From Lama guanicoe (Eukaryota): a stretch of DNA of 64,000 nt. Below the pieces are notes generated by a model. The model saw nothing but the letters and a program-made list of their open reading frames with translations. It was not told where the DNA came from and searched no databases. The stretch is taken from NCBI GenBank assembly GCA_013239625.1, contig MU053758.1, positions 434,001 to 498,000 on the forward strand. Direction: 5' to 3'. Position numbers and translations under genes: made by a program. This document shows, piece after piece, positions 18,001-37,520 of the stretch (positions are counted from its first letter, which is position 1; each line of letters starts with the position of its first letter).

Positions 18001-21000
18001 GTATGGCTGTTTGGAGCTCTTACCCAAAGAGTAGAATAAGCCACTGGGAGCAAGCCTTCCGAAACTTCTAGAAATCTTCATATGTCACATAGAGCCTGTG
18101 AACAATACAGACTCTTCTGTGAGCAGGAATGCCTCCCCTCCCTCCTCCAGCCTGTCTCCCCTCCTCCCCCTTTGGGATCCTGAATGCATCGCTCCTTTCC
18201 CCTCCCTCCCTCCCAGCCGGGCCCTTTGGACTGTCTCCTTCCATCTGCTCTCTGGGATGCCCAGTGCATGTGAGGGGGCACACGGACACCAGATGGAGGG
18301 GAAACCAAGGGCAAACCCCCCACCCCGTGCTTCTCAGGAAGATAAGACTGAAATAAAAGCTAGTTAAATTGGAGGGGCTTCTGCTTTCTCCTTTCTTCAC
18401 CGTGGCTCTAGTTCAGACCGTCTCTTCCTCTTCCTTCGCTCATCGTGGTAGCCAGGGCCCCAAGGTGGGCGTGGGTGGCTTCCCGGAGGGGGCATTTTGC
18501 CTCACTCCCTGCTTCCACCCTGGCCGGCCAGCCCCAGCTGCTGTCTTGCCCTCACAGGTCAACCACTCTCCGAGCTTCTCCACTGACTCCTGGTTGGATA
18601 AAGAGGTAAAGGACAGTCTGCTGTATGACACGCTGGTCCTGATCAACCTGAGAAGCTGTGACAAAAAGAAAGTCTTGGAGGAGGAGAGGCAACGGGGGCA
18701 GTTCCTGCAGCAGTGTCGTTCGCGGGAGACCAGGTACAGTAGTGGGTCAGTCCTAACAGAGGATAATCCGATTTGGAAATGAATTTATATTTGCAGGACG
18801 TGGCAGTTGGACAAGTTTTACTGTGAAAATTCCTTGGTTCTTAACAATAGATTTATTTATTGACATAAGTATATGTGATGGATGTGAGCTGATTAATATC
18901 ACATGAAGATTCAGGGATTACCAACACAAAAAGTAAAACCATTCCTTTATCTTTACAAAAAGGAAGATTTGCCCATCTTCCCCATGTCACTGTGTTGGTG
19001 GGAGCCCTGCTCCCAGCTGGGTAGCATTTGCCTTTTAACAGGGGTCTTCCTCCACAGGGCAATTGCCTCTGAAGACTCGGAGCCTGGTCCAGGAGATCCC
19101 TTTGTTGCATTTCAGATCCCACTGCGGCCCCTGCCCCTGAGGAGGGCAGGGGCCGCAGTGATCCTTTGGGATCAAAGTGATCCTTTGAGACTGAGCTTCT
19201 GGAACTGGGGCAGTGACATCTCTGTTTGGATGACACTGTTTCTCAGCGTGTTCTCATGGGCACCGTCTTCCCTGTACAGGGTGTGGAGGTGGTAGGTAGC
19301 ATGGGGTGTTGTATGGTCCTGTTTTTGGAGCTAAGGAGACCAAGACTCCAAAAGGGGAACTGCCTCGTACTGGTCACCTCGCTGGTAAGCAGCGAGTCTG
19401 GACCCAGAGCTCGGTGGATGGGCCACCTGGGGTTCCAGGACACTGTCCATTAAACTCCTGAGAAGGAGACAGCTCAGAAGTGGCCAGGACCCTCCTCTGA
19501 ATCAGTCTCCTCATCGTGACTTGGCCCTGGACGGCTCAGTGGCTCTTGATTTCCTTGCTGTAAAGGGAGCTTAAGGTTTCTCCCTCCCTGACCTCCCCTG
19601 GGGGCTGTGAGGAAGAATGAGATCATCACAGCTCATAAAAGCTCATTAAGCTCATCCAAGAAGCCCTCAAATTTAGCTAAACACTAGCTGCTGTTCTCCA
19701 GAGAAGGGTAACGGGGGCTGTGATTGGAAAGGTGGCGAAAGTCTGCCTCGTCAGGACCAAGGCAAGCGGGAGATGGAGTTTACTTGTAACGAGAGGGAAT
19801 TTGGTGAGCTGTCAGGAAGACGGTTCTAACCAGCTCTTAATGCATTATGACACTGGCTGTCCCGGGAGGGCTAGAATCTCCTTTCAGGGAAACGTTCATG
19901 CATTTGCTTGGGAAATGCTGACTGACCTCTGTTGTGTGCCAGGCCTCTGTCTGGCTCAAGACAACATCCCGCCCGGCCACGTCCTTTCCAAGTTTGGTCC
20001 CAAGAAAACCTAACTGCAGCCCTGTGTTCTGCTTCCCAACAGGATGGAGGAAGTCAAGGGTTTTCAGGCCGTGCGTCTAGAGAAAACTGAGAAGTATGAG
20101 ATGGAAAACTGTGGAGGGTTCCGCCTGATTTATCCCAGCGTGAGCTCACAGAAGTACGAGAAGTTTTTCCAGGACAACAACTCCCTCTTCCAGAACACTG
20201 TCACCTCCAGGGCTCGGGAGGTGTACGCGCGGTAGGAAGGCTCCTGGAGTGAGGGGCCAGGGCTCCGGGGGAAGAGGGGACTGTGCTGGACCTGCTGGGG
20301 AATTGTTAAGTAGATATGTGGATGTTTCTAGAAACTCACCCCTGAAACAGGCACCCCCACCCCACTCCAGAATGTCCAGCCCCTCAGAGCTCCCTCCTGG
20401 ATTCATGTAGGTGTCAAATCTATGGCGTGGAAGGGCCTCATCCCATCCAGTCCAGTCCCCACGTGCCACATCATTTTATGGGAGGGGGGGTCAGAGCAGA
20501 AAAAGGGTCATGTAGCAGATAATGACAGAAGAGGGACTGGAACCCAGATTCCCAGCTCATGTGACTGAGTTATTTCCATCCCATCACTGACCAGAGAGGC
20601 CCAGCATATGAAGGGGTCCACAGGAGCCCCTGACTTAAGCATCCTCCTCAGACCCTGTTCCCAGCACCTGCCAGCTGTGGGATCTGGCCTCCTGGGAAGT
20701 GGGGAGAGAGATGGGGTGTGGCAGAGTGGGGTGGAGGCCCCCACCACACATCTCTCCTTGGTGCTTGTCCCAGACTGGGAACGGTGTGGTGGAGGGAAGA
20801 GTCTCTTCTCTGCCTCCTGCTCTGGGACCCTCAATCATTTGTGCACACTGGACACACTGGGGCAGGGAAGATGGAGCACTCCCCTCCTTTGCCCAGTCTT
20901 GTCCAGCCCTCAAGGAGAGTGTCCGCATTCACAGCCCATCCCTAACCTGCATGACACTCATGTTCCTCAATGGGCAGGCAGCTGATCCAGGAGCTGAGGC

Positions 21001-30000: not shown

Positions 30001-32890
30001 TCTTTTATTAGGTACACATTTATAATTTTGTCTTTTTGATGTAGTGACCCTTTTATCATCATGAAATGATAAAATCTTCTTTGTACCAGGTAATATTCCT
30101 TGCCCTAAAATCTGTGTTGTTTAATATTCATATAACTGCTCCAGCTGGTTATGATTACTGTTTGCATGGTATCACATCTTTTTTTAAAAAAATCCCTTTA
30201 ATTTCACCTCATTTTTCTCATTATATGTAAAAGATACCTCTTATACGCAGACATAGGTGGGTCTTGCATTCTTATCCAGCATGAGAACATCTGCCTTATA
30301 ATTGGACTGTTTATTCCATTTTCATTTAATATAATTATTAATGTGATTAAATTTAGGGCTGAAATTTTGTTTATTATCTATTCTTTTCTTCTATTTTTGC
30401 TTTTTTCCTGTGATTCTTCTTTTCTGCTTTCTTTTGGGTTAATTGAAAAGTGAATATTTGTAAGAAAAGTGAATACTGTCTTTTTAGTTATAACTTTTTG
30501 CCTTTTGGAGGGGGGTGTTCTATGGGTTGCAGTGTTCATCTTCAGTTTGTCAGAATCTACTTGGAGGTAATGTGCTTAATTTTAAACATAGGAAACTTAC
30601 CCGCTCTTTTATACTAACATACATTATTAGTATTTATTGTAGTGCACATCTGTGTGCTGGTGATGAATTTTATGTTTTTGTTTATCTGAAAATGTCTTTA
30701 TTTAGCCTTCAGTTAGAAGGAGATTTTTGTTGGACCTAGAATTCTGCATTATCATTTTTCTTGCAGTAGTTTAAAAATGTTTCATTATCTTCTGATCTTC
30801 TTTTTCTTCTTTAATGAGAAGTCAGCTGTATTTGTGTCATTGCCCCATGTATGGAATACATCGTTTTTCTCTGGCTGCTCTCTTTATCTCTGAATTTTAG
30901 CAATTTGAAATGCAGTATGATGTGTCTGGATGCAGTTTTATTTGTATTTATCCTATTTAGGATTCTTGAGCTTATTGGCTTTGTAAATTGATGTCTTCTA
31001 CAAATTTGAGGAGTTCCTGGCCATTGACTTCAAATATTTTTTCTGCCTTATTTTGTTCCTCTCTGTTTCACTTTCTGTTTCTATCACCACTCTAGGTACC
31101 TCATATAAATAGAATCACACAATATTTGTACTTTTGTGTCTGGTTTATTTCACTTAGTATAATGTTTTCAAAGTTAATTCATGTTGTAGCATGTATCAGA
31201 ATTTTCTTCTTTTTTAAGGCTGAATAATATACCATGTGTGTATATACCACATTTTGTTTATCCATTTCTTTGTTGGTGGATCGATGGGTTGTGTCCACCT
31301 TTTGACTATTGTGAATAATGTTGCTGGGAACATCAGTGTACATAGGTTTTTTTCTAAAGGGGCTATCTAATAACTTATTTAGTATGTACAGCTAGGAGCA
31401 GAATTGCTGGATCACAGGATATTTGTAGTCTTATTTTACCAAGTATTTCTAGATGGTTCACCAGAATGGCTGGACCAGCCTACCGTCTCATCAGTAGTGC
31501 GTGAGAGTCCCTGTATCTCCCACCAATGCTGACATCCAGCTTTCTAATTTTTGCCAGTCTAATAGCTATGAAATATTGCCTATTTCTCTGATTACCAGTC
31601 TCCAGTGTTTAAAAACTCTCTCATGTTTAAAAATCTCCAGAGGAAGCTCTGTGGACACCCCCCACCATCTTCTGCCCTACTGTTTAACCAATTGATGGTT
31701 AGGAAACTGTTCTAACTGAAATCTTTCTGGCTGCTCATGAACTCAGCTCTACATCTGTTTGTTTTAATCAAGAATGACATAGGAAAGGAGCACTTTGCTT
31801 TCCACAATCTCATTTTGGACTGTTTTTCTCTTCCAGCCTCTAACCTCAATAGAAACTTTCCCAGAATCCACCACCCAGGGCTCAGACTCTCCCAAGTCTC
31901 TGCTGAGTATGACCATGACCACCAGCTCTGAATGCAGTAGCCCAGAGATGGTTAGGGTGGCCTCCCTTAAATGCAAGCAGCATTGGATACCTCGGTACCT
32001 CATCCAGGAGAAAATAGCACAAATTTCTCTGCCTCAGAAATCCCAGAGCTTCTTGGGGAGTCTGAACCCCAGCTGGACTTTGCAGAAGAATGGCGTGAAG
32101 AAGCAGCTTCCCACGTCAGGGCTCTTCACCAAGGTTCAACCGAGGGAGGATCTCTCCATGTCCCCAGCTCACTACAACCCAGAGCTGGTGCTGAGTGACC
32201 AGTCACGTGAGTGCCAGCGTGTTCAGGGATGTGCCAAGAGCTTTGGGGATGGAGTTACCCAAGGAACCAGCCCTAATCTTGGGGAATGCCCAGTTTGAGA
32301 GGGGGTGCAGCCCTTGCCCTCAGGGAGACCCCAGTCTGATGGTGGAAACATAGTCCATATCCTTAGGGAGTCTCTAGTCTTACTGGTTAGACAAAAAATG
32401 AAAAAAAAATAGAATACTATCTAAATACTCTCTTCAACCTGTCCTAGTTCTCATTCAGATGAGCCCCATTCAGCCAGGCCTGTACAAGTTGAGGGTGTCC
32501 AGCACAATGGCTGAATCTGATTTCAGGCTCTTCAGCCAGTTTTAAGCCAGGGGACCCAGAGGAGGTGGCCTTCACCAGGAATTTGTGCTGAGTCCAGAAG
32601 CACAGATTGTTGATGCCGATGACTTTGCCTTTCCAGAATACCTCTCCCTGCCCCAGGAGTGCTACTTCCACAGCCGAAGCTCTGTCGAGAAGAGGCAGCT
32701 GCATGTGCCCTCCCTTCTCCTCCTGCAGAATCTTCAGGGCCATGATGTTTCCCAGAATGATCTGCTGGTGGTTGCAACTCCAGCCCGACTGGATCCGAGG
32801 CCTGGCAGAAGCCATGTAGGTGCTGTGAGAGACCCATGTATACACAGTCGCTGCCTGATCTCTGGCCAGAAAGGATGTGAGAGGAACTAG
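5921..32890 (+). CDS. TTLL6: Tubulin polyglutamylase TTLL6, 14 coding exons traced (2514 nt, 838 codons including the terminal stop), interrupted by an in-frame TGA at 7070-7072
   Basis: The spliced exons give TTL-domain motifs [83 protein letters not shown] and WLLEVNHSPSF. The C-terminus ...[12 protein letters not shown] matches TTLL6 as I recall it. All intron phases are compatible. Confidence 0.93.
6340..6432 (-). mobile_element. tRNA-derived SINE
   Basis: Reverse-strand ggggattgaacccaggacc...ccactgag...ccctcccc. Confidence 0.85.
7069..7109 (+). CDS. TTLL6: TTLL6 41-nt exon (approx. exon 3), contains in-frame TGA 7070-7072
   Basis: ttttccag|A TGA TTG GTG ATC AAT...GAG AGC G|gtgag; encodes [12 protein letters not shown]. 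Confidence 0.88.
8047..8165 (+). CDS. TTLL6: TTLL6 exon 4
   Basis: cag|...CAG|gtatct; encodes [12 protein letters not shown]...[18 protein letters not shown]. Confidence 0.93.
8280..8410 (+). CDS. TTLL6: TTLL6 exon 5
   Basis: ttgcag|...GA|gtgagt; encodes [14 protein letters not shown]...[10 protein letters not shown]. Confidence 0.93.
9023..9336 (+). mobile_element. 5'-truncated L1 3' end with extra 3' segment, flanked by a 13-bp TSD
   Basis: Artiodactyl-type L1 3' UTR (tagcacagggaactatattcaatatct...tgtaaattgactatac); TSD agaattgtactca at 9010-9022 and 9337-9349. Confidence 0.85.
10213..10369 (+). CDS. TTLL6: TTLL6 exon 6
   Basis: tag|...AAG|gtactg; encodes [30 protein letters not shown]...LYISK. 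Confidence 0.93.
10874..11007 (-). mobile_element. tRNA-derived SINE
   Basis: T-rich tail then ggggattgagcccaggacc...ttgagctataccctcccc. Confidence 0.88.
11307..11450 (+). CDS. TTLL6: TTLL6 exon 7
   Basis: tcccag|...CTG|gtgagc; encodes [35 protein letters not shown]...TDNL. Confidence 0.93.
12050..12135 (+). CDS. TTLL6: TTLL6 exon 8
   Basis: ccccag|...AG|gtaagg; encodes [19 protein letters not shown]...GSK. Confidence 0.93.
12418..12570 (-). mobile_element. tRNA-derived SINE
   Basis: (ttttA)n tail and gattgaacccagg...tatacccttcccc; flanking atactctt repeats. Confidence 0.85.
14530..14780 (+). mobile_element. MIR-like ancient SINE (similar fragments near 2130-2390, 11540-11750 and 12940-13190)
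   Basis: MIR-typical phrases: tcatttaatccttacaa, aagtaacttgcccgaggtcgcacaactag, cttaaccacta. Confidence 0.65.
16603..16745 (-). mobile_element. tRNA-derived SINE
   Basis: ggggattgaacccaggacctc...ttgagctacaccttcccct. Confidence 0.88.
17071..17296 (+). CDS. TTLL6: TTLL6 exon 9
   Basis: ttccag|...GAG|gtaggg; encodes KLSTFNAY...[21 protein letters not shown]. Confidence 0.93.
18558..18733 (+). CDS. TTLL6: TTLL6 exon 10
   Basis: tcacag|...AG|gtacag; encodes [19 protein letters not shown]...QQCRSRET. Confidence 0.93.
20043..20231 (+). CDS. TTLL6: TTLL6 exon 11
   Basis: aacag|...CG|gtagga; encodes MEEVKGFQ...[10 protein letters not shown]...SRAREVYA. Confidence 0.92.
20978..21155 (+). CDS. TTLL6: TTLL6 exon 12
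   Basis: gcag|...CAA|gtaaac; encodes [13 protein letters not shown]...[11 protein letters not shown]...FKQ. Confidence 0.9.
22153..22419 (+). CDS. TTLL6: TTLL6 exon 13
   Basis: cctag|...GTG|gtgagt; encodes YVQPLTLV...[17 protein letters not shown]. Confidence 0.9.
22585..23005. mobile_element. MLT1-like (ERVL-MaLR) solo LTR
   Basis: Diagnostic phrases ggtggcttaaaa...ttctttcacagttctggaggctag, ataaggacaccagtcattggattta and ctatttccaaataaggtcacattc. Confidence 0.75.
23060..23232 (-). mobile_element. 5'-truncated L1 3' end with TSD
   Basis: Antisense artiodactyl-type L1 tail (attgaagtatagtcaatttacaatgttg...agttccctgtgcta); TSD ggacacctttt at ~23042 and ~23235. Confidence 0.82.
23835..24410 (+). 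mobile_element. Old L1 fragment (ORF2 end plus 3' UTR)
   Basis: gacaagtgggactacatc, gagaaaatatttgcaaaccatatatctgataaggg, cacttaaaaatggt...aaattttatgttatg. Confidence 0.8.
25070..31600 (-). mobile_element. Cluster of degenerate antisense L1 fragments filling TTLL6 intron 13
   Basis: T-rich sequence with L1-antisense phrases (gttttaatttgcatttccctgat, tatgttgaatagaagtgg, gaataaaccccac). The minus-strand ORF 26404-26586 resembles L1 RT ([29 protein letters not shown]). Confidence 0.8.
31837..32206 (+). CDS. TTLL6: TTLL6 exon 14 (penultimate coding exon)
   Basis: ttccag|...TCAC|gtgagt; encodes [14 protein letters not shown]...[14 protein letters not shown]. Confidence 0.9.
32637..32890 (+). CDS. 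TTLL6: TTLL6 exon 15 (last coding exon; stop TAG 32888-32890)
   Basis: ttccag| acceptor; encodes YLSLPQEC...[15 protein letters not shown]...[12 protein letters not shown]; followed directly by gtacgc. Confidence 0.9.
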
Positions 32891-33671
32891 GTACGCCCAC
32901 CTGTAGTCCCTTAATGTGTCTGGCGCATTGTCAGACACTATATATTTCTATTTCTGGAATGTTGGGTCGGTAGGCAGACAGATGGATTGATAAAGATGTA
33001 CAGGTAAGTAGACGGTTCAGACTAACCTCCATCGAAATGTGACCCCCTTGCAATGACTTGCTATGACTGATCCAAGCACACTTTGCCTCGTCTTCCAAGA
33101 TGGTGCTAAAATCAAGACCGTCACTAGCGCCAGTCCCAGAAGTAGGACCGTATCAACCAGGAGGGGCTGATTTCCACACCTTTTGTGCTGTGCCAGCCTG
33201 GCCCAGGTCCAGGTCACTTGGGCCCAAAGCTGGCCCTGGAGCAGAGTGTACTGACGGGACAGGGCAACAGGACAGCTGAGCCCGAGGAGATCTGGAAACA
33301 AAGGCCCTTAGGCTTTGACTCCAGTGTGTCAAAGGACCAAAGAGATAGCAAACTTTAGTGCCCCCAAAGGAAGGTGGTGCTTACAAATTTAGGAGAACTC
33401 TACGGTAAAGTGGAGGCATCTGTGCTGCTCGGCTGCGGATAGAAGAAGGCGTTATATTTTAATCGTCTCCCTCACTCCCACCACCGAAAGTGGACCGTGA
33501 CCAGAGTGACCCGTAGCTCCCACTGCAGAAGGGCTGGCAAGTGAACATTAGCCCACAGGCATCACTGTGGGTGCTCATAAAAATGCATATTCCAAGGCCT
33601 GCTCCCAGAAATCCTGATTTCATAGGTCCTACTGGGGGCCCAGGAATCTGCATTTTAAGAATCTCCTCTGG

Positions 33672-33811
33672 AGGGGAGGGTATAGCTCAAGTGGTAGGGC
33701 GCATGCTTAGCACGCAGGAGGTCCTGGATTCAATCCCCAGTACATCTTCTAAAAATAAATAAATAAAACTAATTACCACCACCATCCCCCACAATAAAAT
33801 AAAATAAAATA
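33672..33811 (+). mobile_element. tRNA-derived SINE inserted into a MER5-like DNA transposon remnant
   Basis: GGGGAGGGTATAGCTCAAGTGG head, (taaaa)n tail and ctcctct flanks; host element phrase gggcccaggaatctgcattttaa. Confidence 0.85.
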
Positions 33812-34389
33812 AGCTCCTCTAGGTGATCCTGATGGTCCTCTCACCACCGTCAGAGAAAAAGTGGGCCTGGTGTTTCCCAAACGTCCCTGATGGTACGAAT
33901 CATATGGGGGCCCTTGTTAAGCTTAGGGCTTTCCAGGCCACACCTCTGGAAATCCCAACACAAGGGATTTGGGAGGGGCCGTTGGGAATTTGCCTTTGGA
34001 CGAAGTATCGCAAAGACTGTCCAACCTTAGACCCAGGCCTGGGCAGAGGAACCTGTGCCGGCCAGCCTGATGCGTGGGCCTGTTAGAGGAGCAAAGCTCC
34101 CCAGTCCTCATGGGGCTCAAACTCACCCCCCACTGTCTGTGGTTCATAATTGTCCAGAATTTTAAGTTTTTTATGCTCCTACTTTTAGAAAGGGGGGTGA
34201 TGTAGTAGATTACGATAGAAACTTTTGTTCAGCATGACTATTAAATGAAGTTACAATGATCAGAAGTCACACAGAGAAAGGGAGGAGATAACGATATTCA
34301 AAGGGTGTGATGGTTCCCACATGGATTGTTGAATCTGGTTCTGGACTTCTTAGCAGAAAAGGCCAAACATAAAATTCTGTTTTGGACTT

Positions 34390-34774
34390 TTATTTGTCTC
34401 CCCAGTCACACTAGAGACTCTCTAAGGACATGGACTATGTCTCCACCATCAGACTGGGGTCTCCCTGAGGGCAAGGGCTGCACCCCCTCTCAGACTGGGG
34501 ACTCCCCAAGATTAGGGCTGGTTCCTTGGGTAACTCCATTCCCAAAGCTCTTGGCACATCCCTGAACACGCTGGCACTCACGTGACTGGTCACTCAGCAC
34601 CAGCTTTGGCTTGTAGTGAGCTGGGGACATGGTTGAACCTTGGTGAAGAGCCCTGACGTGGGAAGCTGCTTCTTCATGCCATTTTTTAGCAAAGTCCAGC
34701 TTGGGGTTCAGACTCCCCAAGAAGCTCTGGGATTTTGGGGGCAGAGAAATTTTTGCTATTTTCTCCTAAATGAG
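34390..34774 (-). repeat. Inverted duplicate of ~31998-32395 (3' half of TTLL6 exon 14, its donor and the start of intron 14)
   Basis: The reverse complement aligns directly. The ~100-nt core around the donor has one mismatch, and the copy has a 16-nt deletion. The ORF track shows the same peptide ([28 protein letters not shown]) on both strands. Confidence 0.95.
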
Positions 34775-36550
34775 TAAAGATAAGTTTACTCATCTAGTAA
34801 ATAGATAGTTCTTTACAAGAGACTTCTTTCCCTGCCCCTGATTTCTTAAGAGCAGCCTGTCATGTGGTCACTTGTCTGTTACAGACTTTTACTACCATAG
34901 TGGACAATGACTGAAGGTACTGACATGTTTTTTAATGACTAATGATAAAAGTTACCCTTTTTGGTAGCATACTTACACAGGCGCCAGCACTCCTCTGAAT
35001 ATATTTTTTATCTAATTTAATTCCAATCACAACTATATACTTTAGAAAAGAAAAAAACTGGCTCAGAGAGCATTTAACATTGGCTCATTTAACTGGCTCA
35101 GAGGGTTTAACATTCAAACGGGACCACAGCTGTTAAGTGGCAAAGCAAGGATGTTTCTATTCCCAGGCCTCAGACTCTTAAAGCCACAATATCTTTCCTT
35201 CAAATGGCATTTTTAATATTAGTCTTCAGTTAGAGCCAAGGAGATAATAAATGGCTCTTTAGTGAAGGCATTTCTGCAGGGAACAGAGCTGGCTCAAGCC
35301 AAGCAGGGCTTCCTTGAATACCATGTGGAGTCTCCAGTCTCAGAGCTGGTCCTCTGTTTTTAGGTCGAATGATGGCTTCTAAAAATTCCCAACTAATCAG
35401 ACCACAGAGGACTGACACATACAAGGCAAACTAGCTAAAGTCTAATTACATAAAGCAGAATGCCTATCAACACATTGATTTACAAATGGAGTAGGATGTG
35501 GTGTGAGAATAGGACTTCTGCATAATAAATGATGGCTGAGTGAAAGAAGGAGAGAGCCAAGCAGAAGTCCAAATTATGGATCAAGGGCTCTCTTGGCAGG
35601 TGTCATGATGCCTTCAACACATCGAGTTTACGTGCCACATCTCATGTGATCCTGAGGTCAATGCTGTGAGGCAAGGCAGACATTATTACATTATTTTCAC
35701 GTTGAAGATGAAGAGAATCAAGGTTTGGGGATATTTGATGATTTGTCTAACCTCATACAAGTAATGGGTTCCAGAGAAAATAGCCCCTGATATTTCTGTC
35801 TATTTACCATCCTTCCATCGACTTAGATCCCATCCTGACCCACGTGAGGAATGGAGCCCTGACAAATTCCTCCATTTTTCAGCTTAAATCACTATAATAT
35901 CATCATTCCTCTGGAGCTACTTTCACAGTGGGTGGGCCCCTGAGCCCAGGGTTTCAGATCTATCAGCAGTTGAGTTTTAGGGAATAAACAGCCCAATTTG
36001 TAGGATCTTAAGGATGATTAAAGGCTGGCTAAAGTAGGGTACCTGGCACCCAACTGAATAAACGGCAGCTGCCAAGATGATGATGATGGTGATGGTGATG
36101 ATTTTGTGCTGATGGTGTTGAGCCCGGCTCCTCCGGATGGACCTGGACGCACTTGCTTTTGTTGTACTAAAAGCTTTGCCTACATCATCTCAGTCCTTGG
36201 AGCAACTCTTTGTGTTAAGTACTATTGTCATTCTCTCTCTCTCTCTTTTTTTTTTTTCCAAATGAGGAAGCCAAGCTTTAGAGAAGTTAAGTAACTTACC
36301 CAAAGGCACACAGGCAACAAGAGCTCCTGAGCCTGCGCTCTTAGCCACTTACCACTCGTCTCTGGCCAGCATCTTGGCGGCTCTTAAATGATCCATATCA
36401 AATGTCTGGGGCTGTGAGAATGCAGGAAGATGAATGTTGTGTAGGTAAAAAAGAGTTTCTGTGAATGTGAATCACCTAAGTGCCTCCTCAGCTACTGGAA
36501 ACAGATGGTGATGATGAGTTAATTGACTTGAATATTCTAGAAGCTATTTT

Positions 36551-36599: not shown

Positions 36600-36742
36600 T
36601 AGTGGGGAGGTCATTAGGTTTATCTATTTATTTCTTTTGGTGGGGGTACCAGGGATTGAACCCAGGACCTCATGCACGCTAGGCATGTACTCTACCACTG
36701 AGCTATACCCTCCCTTTTTAATTTTTTTTTTTCAGGTGAGAA
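36551..36742 (-). mobile_element. tRNA-derived SINE with (TTAT)/(TTAG) tail and 14-bp TSD
   Basis: TSD ctagaagctatttt at 36537-36550 and 36743-36756. Confidence 0.9.
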
Positions 36743-36795: not shown

Positions 36796-37520
36796 AATCA
36801 GACCGGATCTCTGCCATTTTGTCTCTTTCCTCCTCTTACTCCCAGGAAATGATTTGTCTCTTCCTAGAGTGTCTTTGATGCCCATGGAAGCAGCTGAAAG
36901 TTTTATTTCCTCATCTGGACATCCTGGTCTTCTGACTACCTCCCATGAGCACCACTGAGGCTAGGAACCTTGCCTTTCATGCCCTCCCAGTTAGCTTACA
37001 GTGCTGTAGGACCATGACCTCTGGGAGTCACTGGTGCTGCCCCAGGACACACCCCAGTGGCCCCTCCAGTGGCACTCCTATGAGTACATCACATGGCACT
37101 GTGGTCCAGAACACTCCCAGGGATAGAGCAACCTGAAGAGAGGAGTGTTTCAGAGAAGGACTCACAACTTGCAGGAGTCCGAAGGCCTCAGAGCACCGTT
37201 AGGCCTGTATCAGCCAGCCTTCAACTCCAGAGAGAAAAGACAGAGGAAGGGCTGGGCCTGATGGAGAACTCCGAGCCCCGAATAAGGGAGCTGGGGCAGT
37301 TGTAACTTCACCAGATGAAGACCAGACCTCCTCCCACCCCAGCAGCTCAGGGCCCAAACATCTTCCTGCTTCCTCCCTTACCAGCCCAACTCAGCTTTGT
37401 TGGCAAAGACAGAGGTGAGGTGAGAGTACCCAGCCTGCAAGTATTTCTCCTGTTGACCTGCTGAAATGATACATCTTCCCCTAAAGTGTGCATTAATAAA
37501 ATAAGTTGCCATGCTCCATG
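36796..37520 (+). other. TTLL6: Putative non-coding terminal (3' UTR) exon of TTLL6
   Basis: Strong acceptor ttttttcctttccag| ending at 36795 and AATAAA at 37495-37500; a possible donor sits right after the stop (TAG|gtacgc). Inferred without transcript data. Confidence 0.5.
37495..37500 (+). terminator. Candidate polyadenylation signal AATAAA
   Basis: cattAATAAAataag at the end of the putative terminal exon. Confidence 0.45.

What the first reader, a model, noticed from the sequence alone, without database searches (positions are those of the whole stretch)
31998..34774. Inverted copy of an exon end plus splice donor brackets the last coding exon of TTLL6: candidate pre-mRNA fold-back switch
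Seen: 34390-34774 is the reverse complement of ~31998-32395. That source segment is the last ~205 nt of coding exon 14, its donor CAC|GTGAGT and ~190 nt of intron. The ~100 nt around the donor differ by one base, while the flanks differ more and the copy has a 16-nt deletion. The exon-derived part is unique gene sequence, not a transposon. The ~2-kb spacer contains exon 15, which carries the stop codon. Inference: if transcription continues to the terminal exon near 36.8-37.5 kb, both arms are in one pre-mRNA and can form a duplex of over 300 bp. Such a duplex could hide the exon 14 donor, loop out or circularise exon 15, act as an editing-complementary sequence for ADAR recoding of exon 14, or feed Dicer endo-siRNAs in the germline. 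Higher identity at the donor hints at gene conversion or selection.
Basis: partly seen in the sequence, partly recalled or inferred. Interest (0 to 1): 0.75.

Follow-up and report, generated by a model that had tools for sequence, protein, structure and literature searches.

The report
Old inverted gene fragment, camelid TTLL6
A 380-base piece of a cilia and sperm-tail enzyme gene was copied backwards into its last intron in a camel-family ancestor; it could fold the unspliced RNA back on itself, but it looks like a tolerated DNA-repair scar rather than a selected switch.

Summary
The inverted copy is real: 34410-34774 (ragged to 34390) is the reverse complement of 31999-32378, 95.2% identical in the core, with a 16-nt deletion and a 1-nt insertion in the copy. 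The gene is alpaca-type TTLL6. Protein comparison dates the copy to the camelid stem lineage. It carries 4 camelid-only residues but keeps ancestral codons where camel and alpaca share later changes. A 9-bp hairpin with 8/9 microhomology at its junction points to snap-back templated insertion. The claimed identity peak at the donor is not significant (P 0.06-0.58), and the copy lacks three alpaca-specific exon changes, so recent conversion is not supported there. None of 16 camelid protein entries skips the last coding exon alone. The skip that the geometry predicts (both exons together) occurs in camelids but also in banteng, sheep and deer, so the arm did not create it. At 2 kb, the published Alu distance curve gives about 0.24% average editing, in a fast-evolving tail outside the catalytic domain. 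No read-level evidence was obtained, so editing, circles and splicing levels are untested. Verdict: real, old and probably near-neutral, with a modest chance that it tunes an ancestral skip.

The parts
31999..32378 (+). Arm A (source): last 208 nt of the penultimate coding exon, its donor and 172 nt of intron; ragged similarity continues to about 32398
34410..34774 (-). Arm B (inverted copy) in the last intron; 16-nt deletion, 1-nt insertion, stop codon at the junction; ragged similarity to 34390
31837..32206 (+). Penultimate coding exon of TTLL6 ('exon 14', 370 nt; residues 526-648 of alpaca model P0020)
32207..32212 (+). Splice donor GTGAGT, inside the predicted duplex (107-bp helix with G-U allowed, starting at 32179)
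32140..32155 (+). 16 nt present in the exon and absent from the copy; all compared homologues keep these codons, so it is a deletion in the copy
32036..32046 (+). Two internal 3' splice acceptors inside arm A. The second is used in camel models and its counterpart in a dog model; the first arose after the duplication and is used in alpaca models
32637..32890 (+). Last coding exon ('exon 15', 254 nt) in the loop; stop codon directly before its donor
34770..34793 (.). Perfect 9-bp hairpin (6-nt loop; 13 bp with one mismatch) overlapping the junction of arm B; its outer arm matches the start of arm A at 8 of 9 bases
   Evidence: sequence
36796..37520 (+). Terminal exon ('exon 16'); acceptor at 36796, AATAAA at 37495; the 3' end is approximate

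Best explanation
A single templated insertion in a stem-lineage camelid. A broken or stalled DNA end in the last intron folded back and copied itself (the junction hairpin), used the new end as microhomology to prime on the nearby exon in the opposite orientation, copied about 380 nt and rejoined. The copy became fixed and has drifted since. In the nascent RNA it can pair with its source, but it is made about 1.8-1.9 kb after the short intron 14 is complete. Most transcripts therefore commit to normal splicing first, and pairing and ADAR editing are rare (fractions of a percent on average) and fall in a fast-evolving tail. Shown: structure, copy number, direction of the copy, relative age, hairpin and microhomology, ancestral isoform set. 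Inferred: the repair mechanism, the kinetics, low editing and neutrality.
For: Two copies only. The copy shares 4 camelid-only residues (616, 618, 620, 633) but keeps the ancestral-type base at codons 592 and 612, where camel and alpaca agree on a derived residue. Arm-to-arm divergence at non-synonymous sites (6 in 147 sites) is of the same order as camel-alpaca difference in the same codons (4 residues), so there is no sign of slowed decay. There is no significant identity peak and no excess of G-U-preserving transitions (9 of 14, P = 0.42). The exon part inside the arm is no more conserved between camel and alpaca than the rest of the two exons (5 of 69 against 7 of 138 residues differ, P = 0.54). 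13 distinct stems of 9 bp or more occur in 64 kb, one of them on the junction (about 1% by chance, my arithmetic), which is the signature of snap-back repair described in PMC2943611 (passages). Isoform classes around these exons are shared with ruminants or dog. The Alu editability curve of PMC4066801 (passages) gives 0.24% above baseline at 1991 nt, and that paper reports less when the arms lie in different gene segments.
Against: No RNA reads were examined, so low editing and unchanged splicing are extrapolations. Protein models show which isoforms exist, not their levels. The duplex is longer and more perfect (95%) than typical Alu pairs and has no competing copies. The element has survived at least 11-25 million years (dates from PMC1939714) although it covers a splice donor. 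Polarised substitutions lean towards the source arm (13 to 4, P = 0.049; 13 to 6 with indels, P = 0.17), which simple neutrality does not predict. The empty site in an outgroup was not seen (one search found nothing), so the hairpin may predate the insertion.
Confidence: 0.72

Rival explanations
1. Functional splicing modulator. When fold-back wins the race, it hides the 3' half and the donor of exon 14 and brings the introns flanking exon 15 together. This favours the exon 13 to exon 16 join (a 543-residue TTLL6 without its tail, with the stop in the last exon) and back-splicing of exon 15 into a circle.
For: The geometry fits both outcomes: the intron half alone forms a 172-bp duplex (net -260 kcal/mol) starting 260 nt before the exon 15 acceptor. 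The two-exon skip is present in alpaca, Bactrian and wild camel models (P0021, P0017, P0016). Inverted Alu pairs are enriched around skippable exons (PMC13019027, passages), and short inverted repeats suffice for circles (PMC4201285, start of abstract only).
Against: The same skip is in banteng, sheep and white-tailed deer models (P0038, P0039, P0041), whose lineages split before the duplication. No sequence sign of selection on pairing. Arm B appears 1773-1945 nt after the exon 15 acceptor. Four AATAAA motifs in a SINE-like tail lie upstream of arm B and could end some transcripts first.
Confidence: 0.17
2. Editing-complementary sequence that drives meaningful ADAR recoding of the TTLL6 tail. 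The exon half can pair until the last intron is removed, even after intron 14 is spliced.
For: The exon half alone gives net -234 kcal/mol; 43 of 52 paired exonic adenosines would recode; arm B stays in the transcript for at least 2022 more nt.
Against: Predicted average editing is about 0.24%. Editing in testis is rare and lower in germ cells in mouse (PMC7360552, passages). The region lies outside the Pfam TTL domain (residues 3-282) and outside the truncated constructs in PDB (query residues 1-398), and is 59-78% identical across five non-camelid mammals against 91-95% in the core. There is no A-C mismatch in the exon half. Most strongly edited coding sites are conserved across mammals (PMC8897444, passages); this one cannot be.
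Confidence: 0.06
3. Source of Dicer-made endo-siRNAs in the germline.
For: Helices of 107, 58 and 55 bp with G-U allowed are long enough for Dicer.
Against: The duplex exists only while the last intron is unspliced, that is in the nucleus. No Rfam family matches either arm. From my own knowledge, not checked here: efficient mammalian endo-siRNA production is mainly a rodent oocyte feature.
Confidence: 0.02
4. Assembly artefact.
For: The assembly is fragmented (55,231 contigs), and the junctions were not checked against reads.
Against: The arms differ by 4.8% plus two indels, and the copy carries ancestral states that match camel and outgroup proteins; a mis-join would reproduce the present allele.
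Confidence: 0.01

Closest known systems
Templated inverted insertions from snap-back synthesis-dependent microhomology-mediated end joining or MMBIR template switching (PMC2943611, passages; PMC8421209 and PMC7954356, search listing only)
   Same: Local source, inverted orientation, short inverted repeat spanning the junction, microhomology with the template start, no target-site duplication or poly(A) tail seen.
   Different: About 380 nt copied from 2 kb away, longer than the short inserts at experimental breaks; old and apparently fixed; the empty site was not seen.
Inverted Alu pairs that loop out exons (TBXT), promote circles or attract ADAR (PMC13019027, PMC4066801, passages)
   Same: Two arms of 300-400 nt in one pre-mRNA, bracketing an exon, about 2 kb apart.
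   Different: Unique gene sequence rather than a mobile element; one arm includes coding sequence and the donor itself; 95% identity and no competing copies; no effect shown.
Intronic editing-complementary sequences of recoding sites such as GRIA2 Q/R (search listing only; details recalled)
   Same: An intronic sequence complementary to an upstream exon and pairing before splicing.
   Different: Those are short, imperfect and conserved across mammals and select single sites; this one is long, near-perfect, camelid-limited and lies one intron further on.
Hairpin-RNA loci that arise by inverted duplication of gene fragments (fly hpRNAs, young plant MIR genes, mouse oocyte hairpin pseudogenes; all recalled, no call)
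   Same: Origin by inverted duplication of gene sequence.
   Different: Those are exported hairpin transcripts with short loops; here the loop is 2 kb and one arm is intronic.

Membership tests
Templated inverted insertion (snap-back or template switch) | Insert is a copy of nearby sequence in inverted orientation | tested here: met
Templated inverted insertion (snap-back or template switch) | Short inverted repeat and microhomology at a junction | tested here: met
   9-bp hairpin on the junction and 8 of 9 match to the source start
Templated inverted insertion (snap-back or template switch) | Pre-insertion site lacks the insert and the hairpin's second arm | tested here: inconclusive
   No outgroup locus found (0 of 308 pattern matches confirmed); the flanks have no other genomic copy
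Retrocopy or transposon insertion | Spliced sequence, poly(A) tail, target-site duplication or many copies | tested here: not met
   The copy spans an exon-intron junction, has two copies only and shows no tail or duplication in the sequence
Editing-complementary sequence | Exon-intron duplex possible in the pre-mRNA | tested here: met
Editing-complementary sequence | A-to-G changes in RNA that depend on the arm | not tested
   No read-level data obtained
Editing-complementary sequence | Conservation or compensatory change of the pairing | tested here: not met
   No significant identity peak; G-U-preserving transitions 9 of 14, P = 0.42; only one genome's arms compared
Loop-out or circle-promoting inverted repeat | Complementary arms in the introns on both sides of an exon | tested here: met
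   32207-32378 and 34410-34582 flank exon 15
Loop-out or circle-promoting inverted repeat | Skipped or back-spliced product specific to lineages with the arms | tested here: inconclusive
   Exon 15-only skip in 0 of 16 camelid entries and 0 of 57 proteins; two-exon skip in 3 camelid and 3 ruminant entries; levels and circles not testable from proteins
Endo-siRNA hairpin locus | Phased 21-23-nt RNAs from both arms | not tested
   No small-RNA data obtained; no Rfam match on either arm

The most novel reading that the evidence does not exclude
A one-off DNA-repair copy gave camelids a built-in antisense arm against their own exon and splice donor. It shifts an ancestral two-exon skip of TTLL6 towards the tail-less 543-residue enzyme, with a circular exon 15 as a by-product, in a way that depends on transcription speed: a lineage-specific splicing switch made from unique gene sequence rather than from transposons.
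Probability: 0.12. Interest if true: 0.65.

Novelty: new member of a known kind. Interest (0 to 1): 0.27.

Why it matters
If neutral, it is still a clean natural test of how far a near-perfect 380-bp duplex that covers a splice donor can be ignored by co-transcriptional splicing, with ruminants and pig as controls expected to lack the arm. If it shifts splicing, it would show that template-switch copies of a gene's own exon can create regulatory RNA structure in one step, as the Alu pair proposed for TBXT does, and it would change the tail of a tubulin polyglutamylase needed for ciliary structure and motility (PMC13137484, passages).

Tried and rejected
Donor-centred conservation or gene conversion: rejected on permutation tests. 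Only the widest donor-centred window (+/-75 nt) reached P = 0.025, one of four sizes tried after seeing the data. Compensatory G-U bias: not significant. Assembly artefact: rejected on divergence and ancestral states. Transposon or retrocopy origin: rejected. A repeat split by the insertion, which would have shown the empty site: neither flank has another genomic match. Outgroup DNA from metagenome contigs: 308 pattern matches, 0 confirmed. Sequencing runs: one search listed 24 runs, 19 holding part of 31838-32900 (RNA-type shares up to 0.32, six large runs 0.82-0.96); none was laid, so they are no evidence for expression, editing or arm B. One search used an exon start off by one base; its editing table and exon 14 to 16 test were discarded and redone (its protein identity table is unaffected). 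Polarising the intronic differences with three old repeat copies is weak, and the last four differences probably belong to the junction; without them the lean towards arm A is about 10 to 3 (hand count). Rfam scan of 63,001 of 64,000 bases, both arms included: 7 tRNA-like SINE heads only. Earlier scan findings: none returned. Literature: 'TTLL6' with 'camel' gave 1 unrelated paper; six-term searches on inverted duplication with editing or splicing listed no report of this element among the rows shown. 'TTLL6' with 'alpaca' was not searched. PMC8605555, PMC7830431, PMC8032396 and PMC7404189 were searched by term and gave nothing used; Eperon 1988 and Solnick 1985 were seen as reference titles only. 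No supplements were read.
Full report
Observation. The window holds one long inverted repeat of non-SINE sequence. Arm A runs 31999-32378 and arm B 34410-34774, with ragged similarity for another 15-20 nt. Over 378 columns there are 23 substitutions, a 1-nt insertion and a 16-nt gap; the clean core has 17 in 357 (4.8%, Jukes-Cantor 0.049 +/- 0.012). In the window's own 2.05-Gb genome the query found the two arms and three weak matches to the last ~70 intronic bases only (the search is a lower bound). Those three are old repeat-like copies; that they resemble an L2 end is my recollection.

Gene. The exon 31837-32206 joined to 32637-32890 translates exactly to the tail of the alpaca model P0020, and the dromedary protein is 94% identical over the first exon. 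The host is therefore TTLL6 of alpaca or a very close relative. The stop codon ends the last coding exon, and the terminal exon starts at 36796.

Direction and age. All compared homologues keep the codons missing from arm B, so B is the copy. B shares four residues found in camel and alpaca but in none of peccary, whale, cow, dog and bat (positions 616, 618, 620, 633), so it arose after the camelid line left other artiodactyls (55-60 million years in the abstract start of PMC3514880; 64 in PMC6371769, passage). At codon 592 it keeps the middle base of the outgroup threonine codon, and at codon 612 it keeps methionine, whereas camel and alpaca both have derived residues. So it predates their split (11 million years by fossils, 25 by mitochondrial clock; PMC1939714, passages). 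Codon 612 lies in a CpG and could be a reversion, so codon 592 is the stronger witness. Arm-to-arm non-synonymous differences (6 in 147 sites) are close to the camel-alpaca difference in the same codons (4), which puts the event around or shortly before the split. The prediction that camels carry arm B is inferred, not seen.

Origin. A perfect 9-bp hairpin with a 6-nt loop overlaps the junction at 34770-34793, and its outer arm matches the first nine bases of arm A at eight positions. Stems of that size occur at 13 places in 64 kb (24 rows collapse to 13), so one on either junction has a chance near 1% by my arithmetic. This is the pattern of snap-back synthesis followed by microhomology priming described in PMC2943611 (passages). 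The other end fades into repeat-like similarity that may have served for the return. The copy includes intron, has no tail and no target-site duplication, so it is not a retrocopy. The empty site was not seen, so the mechanism is inferred.

Selection or conversion. The 103-nt tract with one mismatch is there, but it is not beyond chance (P = 0.059 to 0.38 by how events are counted; longest perfect run P = 0.19 to 0.58). Exon and intron halves differ alike (14 events in 192 against 11 in 186). B lacks three alpaca-specific changes of arm A, one of them 25 nt before the donor, so those sites have not been converted since. Transitions that keep a G-U pair are 9 of 14 (P = 0.42), and the exon part inside the arm is no better conserved between camel and alpaca than its neighbours (P = 0.54). 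One result runs against simple neutrality: changes that can be polarised fall more on the source than on the copy (exon non-synonymous 5 to 1, P = 0.22; all 13 to 4, P = 0.049; with the two indels 13 to 6, P = 0.17). The intronic calls rest on three distant repeat copies and four lie in the ragged end, so I leave this unexplained.

Splicing. The duplex would be very stable (net -467 kcal/mol; halves -234 and -260), so the question is timing. Arm B starts 1773 nt after the exon 15 acceptor, and the part that pairs with the donor comes at 1945 nt. A hidden exon 14 donor cannot join to exon 16, so the expected products are the exon 13 to 16 join, retention of intron 14 (33-residue read-through to a stop counted from the exon end region) or a circle of exon 15. 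Of 57 proteins fetched, 53 reach this region by my pattern. None shows exon 15 skipped alone (0 of 57; 0 of 16 camelid entries). The two-exon skip appears in alpaca, Bactrian and wild camel, and also in banteng, sheep and white-tailed deer. Internal acceptors and donors in exons 14 and 15 are likewise shared with dog, deer, buffalo or musk deer. Only a new acceptor at 32037 and an exon-internal intron using it are limited to alpaca entries; they depend on an AG that arose in arm A after the duplication. These are predicted models: they show presence, not levels, and only up to 15 members per cluster were listed.

Editing and small RNA. 43 of 52 paired exonic adenosines would recode, and the exon half can pair until the last intron is removed. 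But for human Alu pairs the average editability follows 2.9 x exp(-d/800) + 0.25 percent, lower when the arms are in different gene segments and not higher for near-identical pairs (PMC4066801, passages); at 1991 nt that is 0.24% above baseline. Editing in mouse testis is rare and lower in germ cells (PMC7360552, passages). The affected residues 580-648 lie outside the TTL domain and the truncated PDB constructs, in a region 59-78% identical across five non-camelid mammals against 91-95% in the core. No Rfam family matches either arm. No reads were laid on the locus, so none of this is tested directly.

Comparison and verdict. It is a member of the class of local templated inverted insertions and would work, if at all, like an inverted Alu pair. 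It does not meet the conservation test for an editing-complementary sequence, and the RNA tests are open. What is less usual is that the arm is unique gene sequence and covers a live splice donor. The search for TTLL6 with camel found no relevant paper, and the earlier scan notes held nothing. Best reading: a real, old, probably near-neutral repair scar (0.72). A splicing-tuning role (0.17) is the rival worth one RNA-seq comparison and one minigene.

Noticed in passing
window 34582-34726, minus strand: Arm B keeps both an internal acceptor of the type used in camel and dog models and the intact donor, so it is a ready-made 145-nt cassette exon for any antisense transcript. No antisense transcript was looked for.
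   Followed up: partly
window 31951-32037: Alpaca model P0022 removes an 87-nt in-frame stretch from inside the exon (donor at 31951, acceptor at 32037); the acceptor AG arose after the duplication. Seen in 1 of 53 classified proteins.
   Followed up: partly
window 33674-33780 and 36606-36714: Two tRNA-derived SINE-like copies in opposite orientation (79% identical) lie in the same last intron and bracket arm B; a second, weaker possible duplex.
   Followed up: no
window 33754-33808: Four AATAAA motifs in a sense-strand SINE-like tail upstream of arm B; possible intronic polyadenylation that would exclude the arm.
   Followed up: no
window 19120-19160: Perfect 17-bp GC-rich hairpin with a 7-nt loop in a TTLL6 intron, the longest perfect stem in the window; possibly another short template switch.
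   Followed up: no
window 31999-32392: Polarised substitutions fall more on the source arm than on the copy (13 to 4; weak, see report).
   Followed up: partly
window 32790-32890: Camelid TTLL6 lacks about five residues near the C-terminus that peccary, whale, ruminant and dog proteins have: a small camelid deletion in the last coding exon.
   Followed up: no
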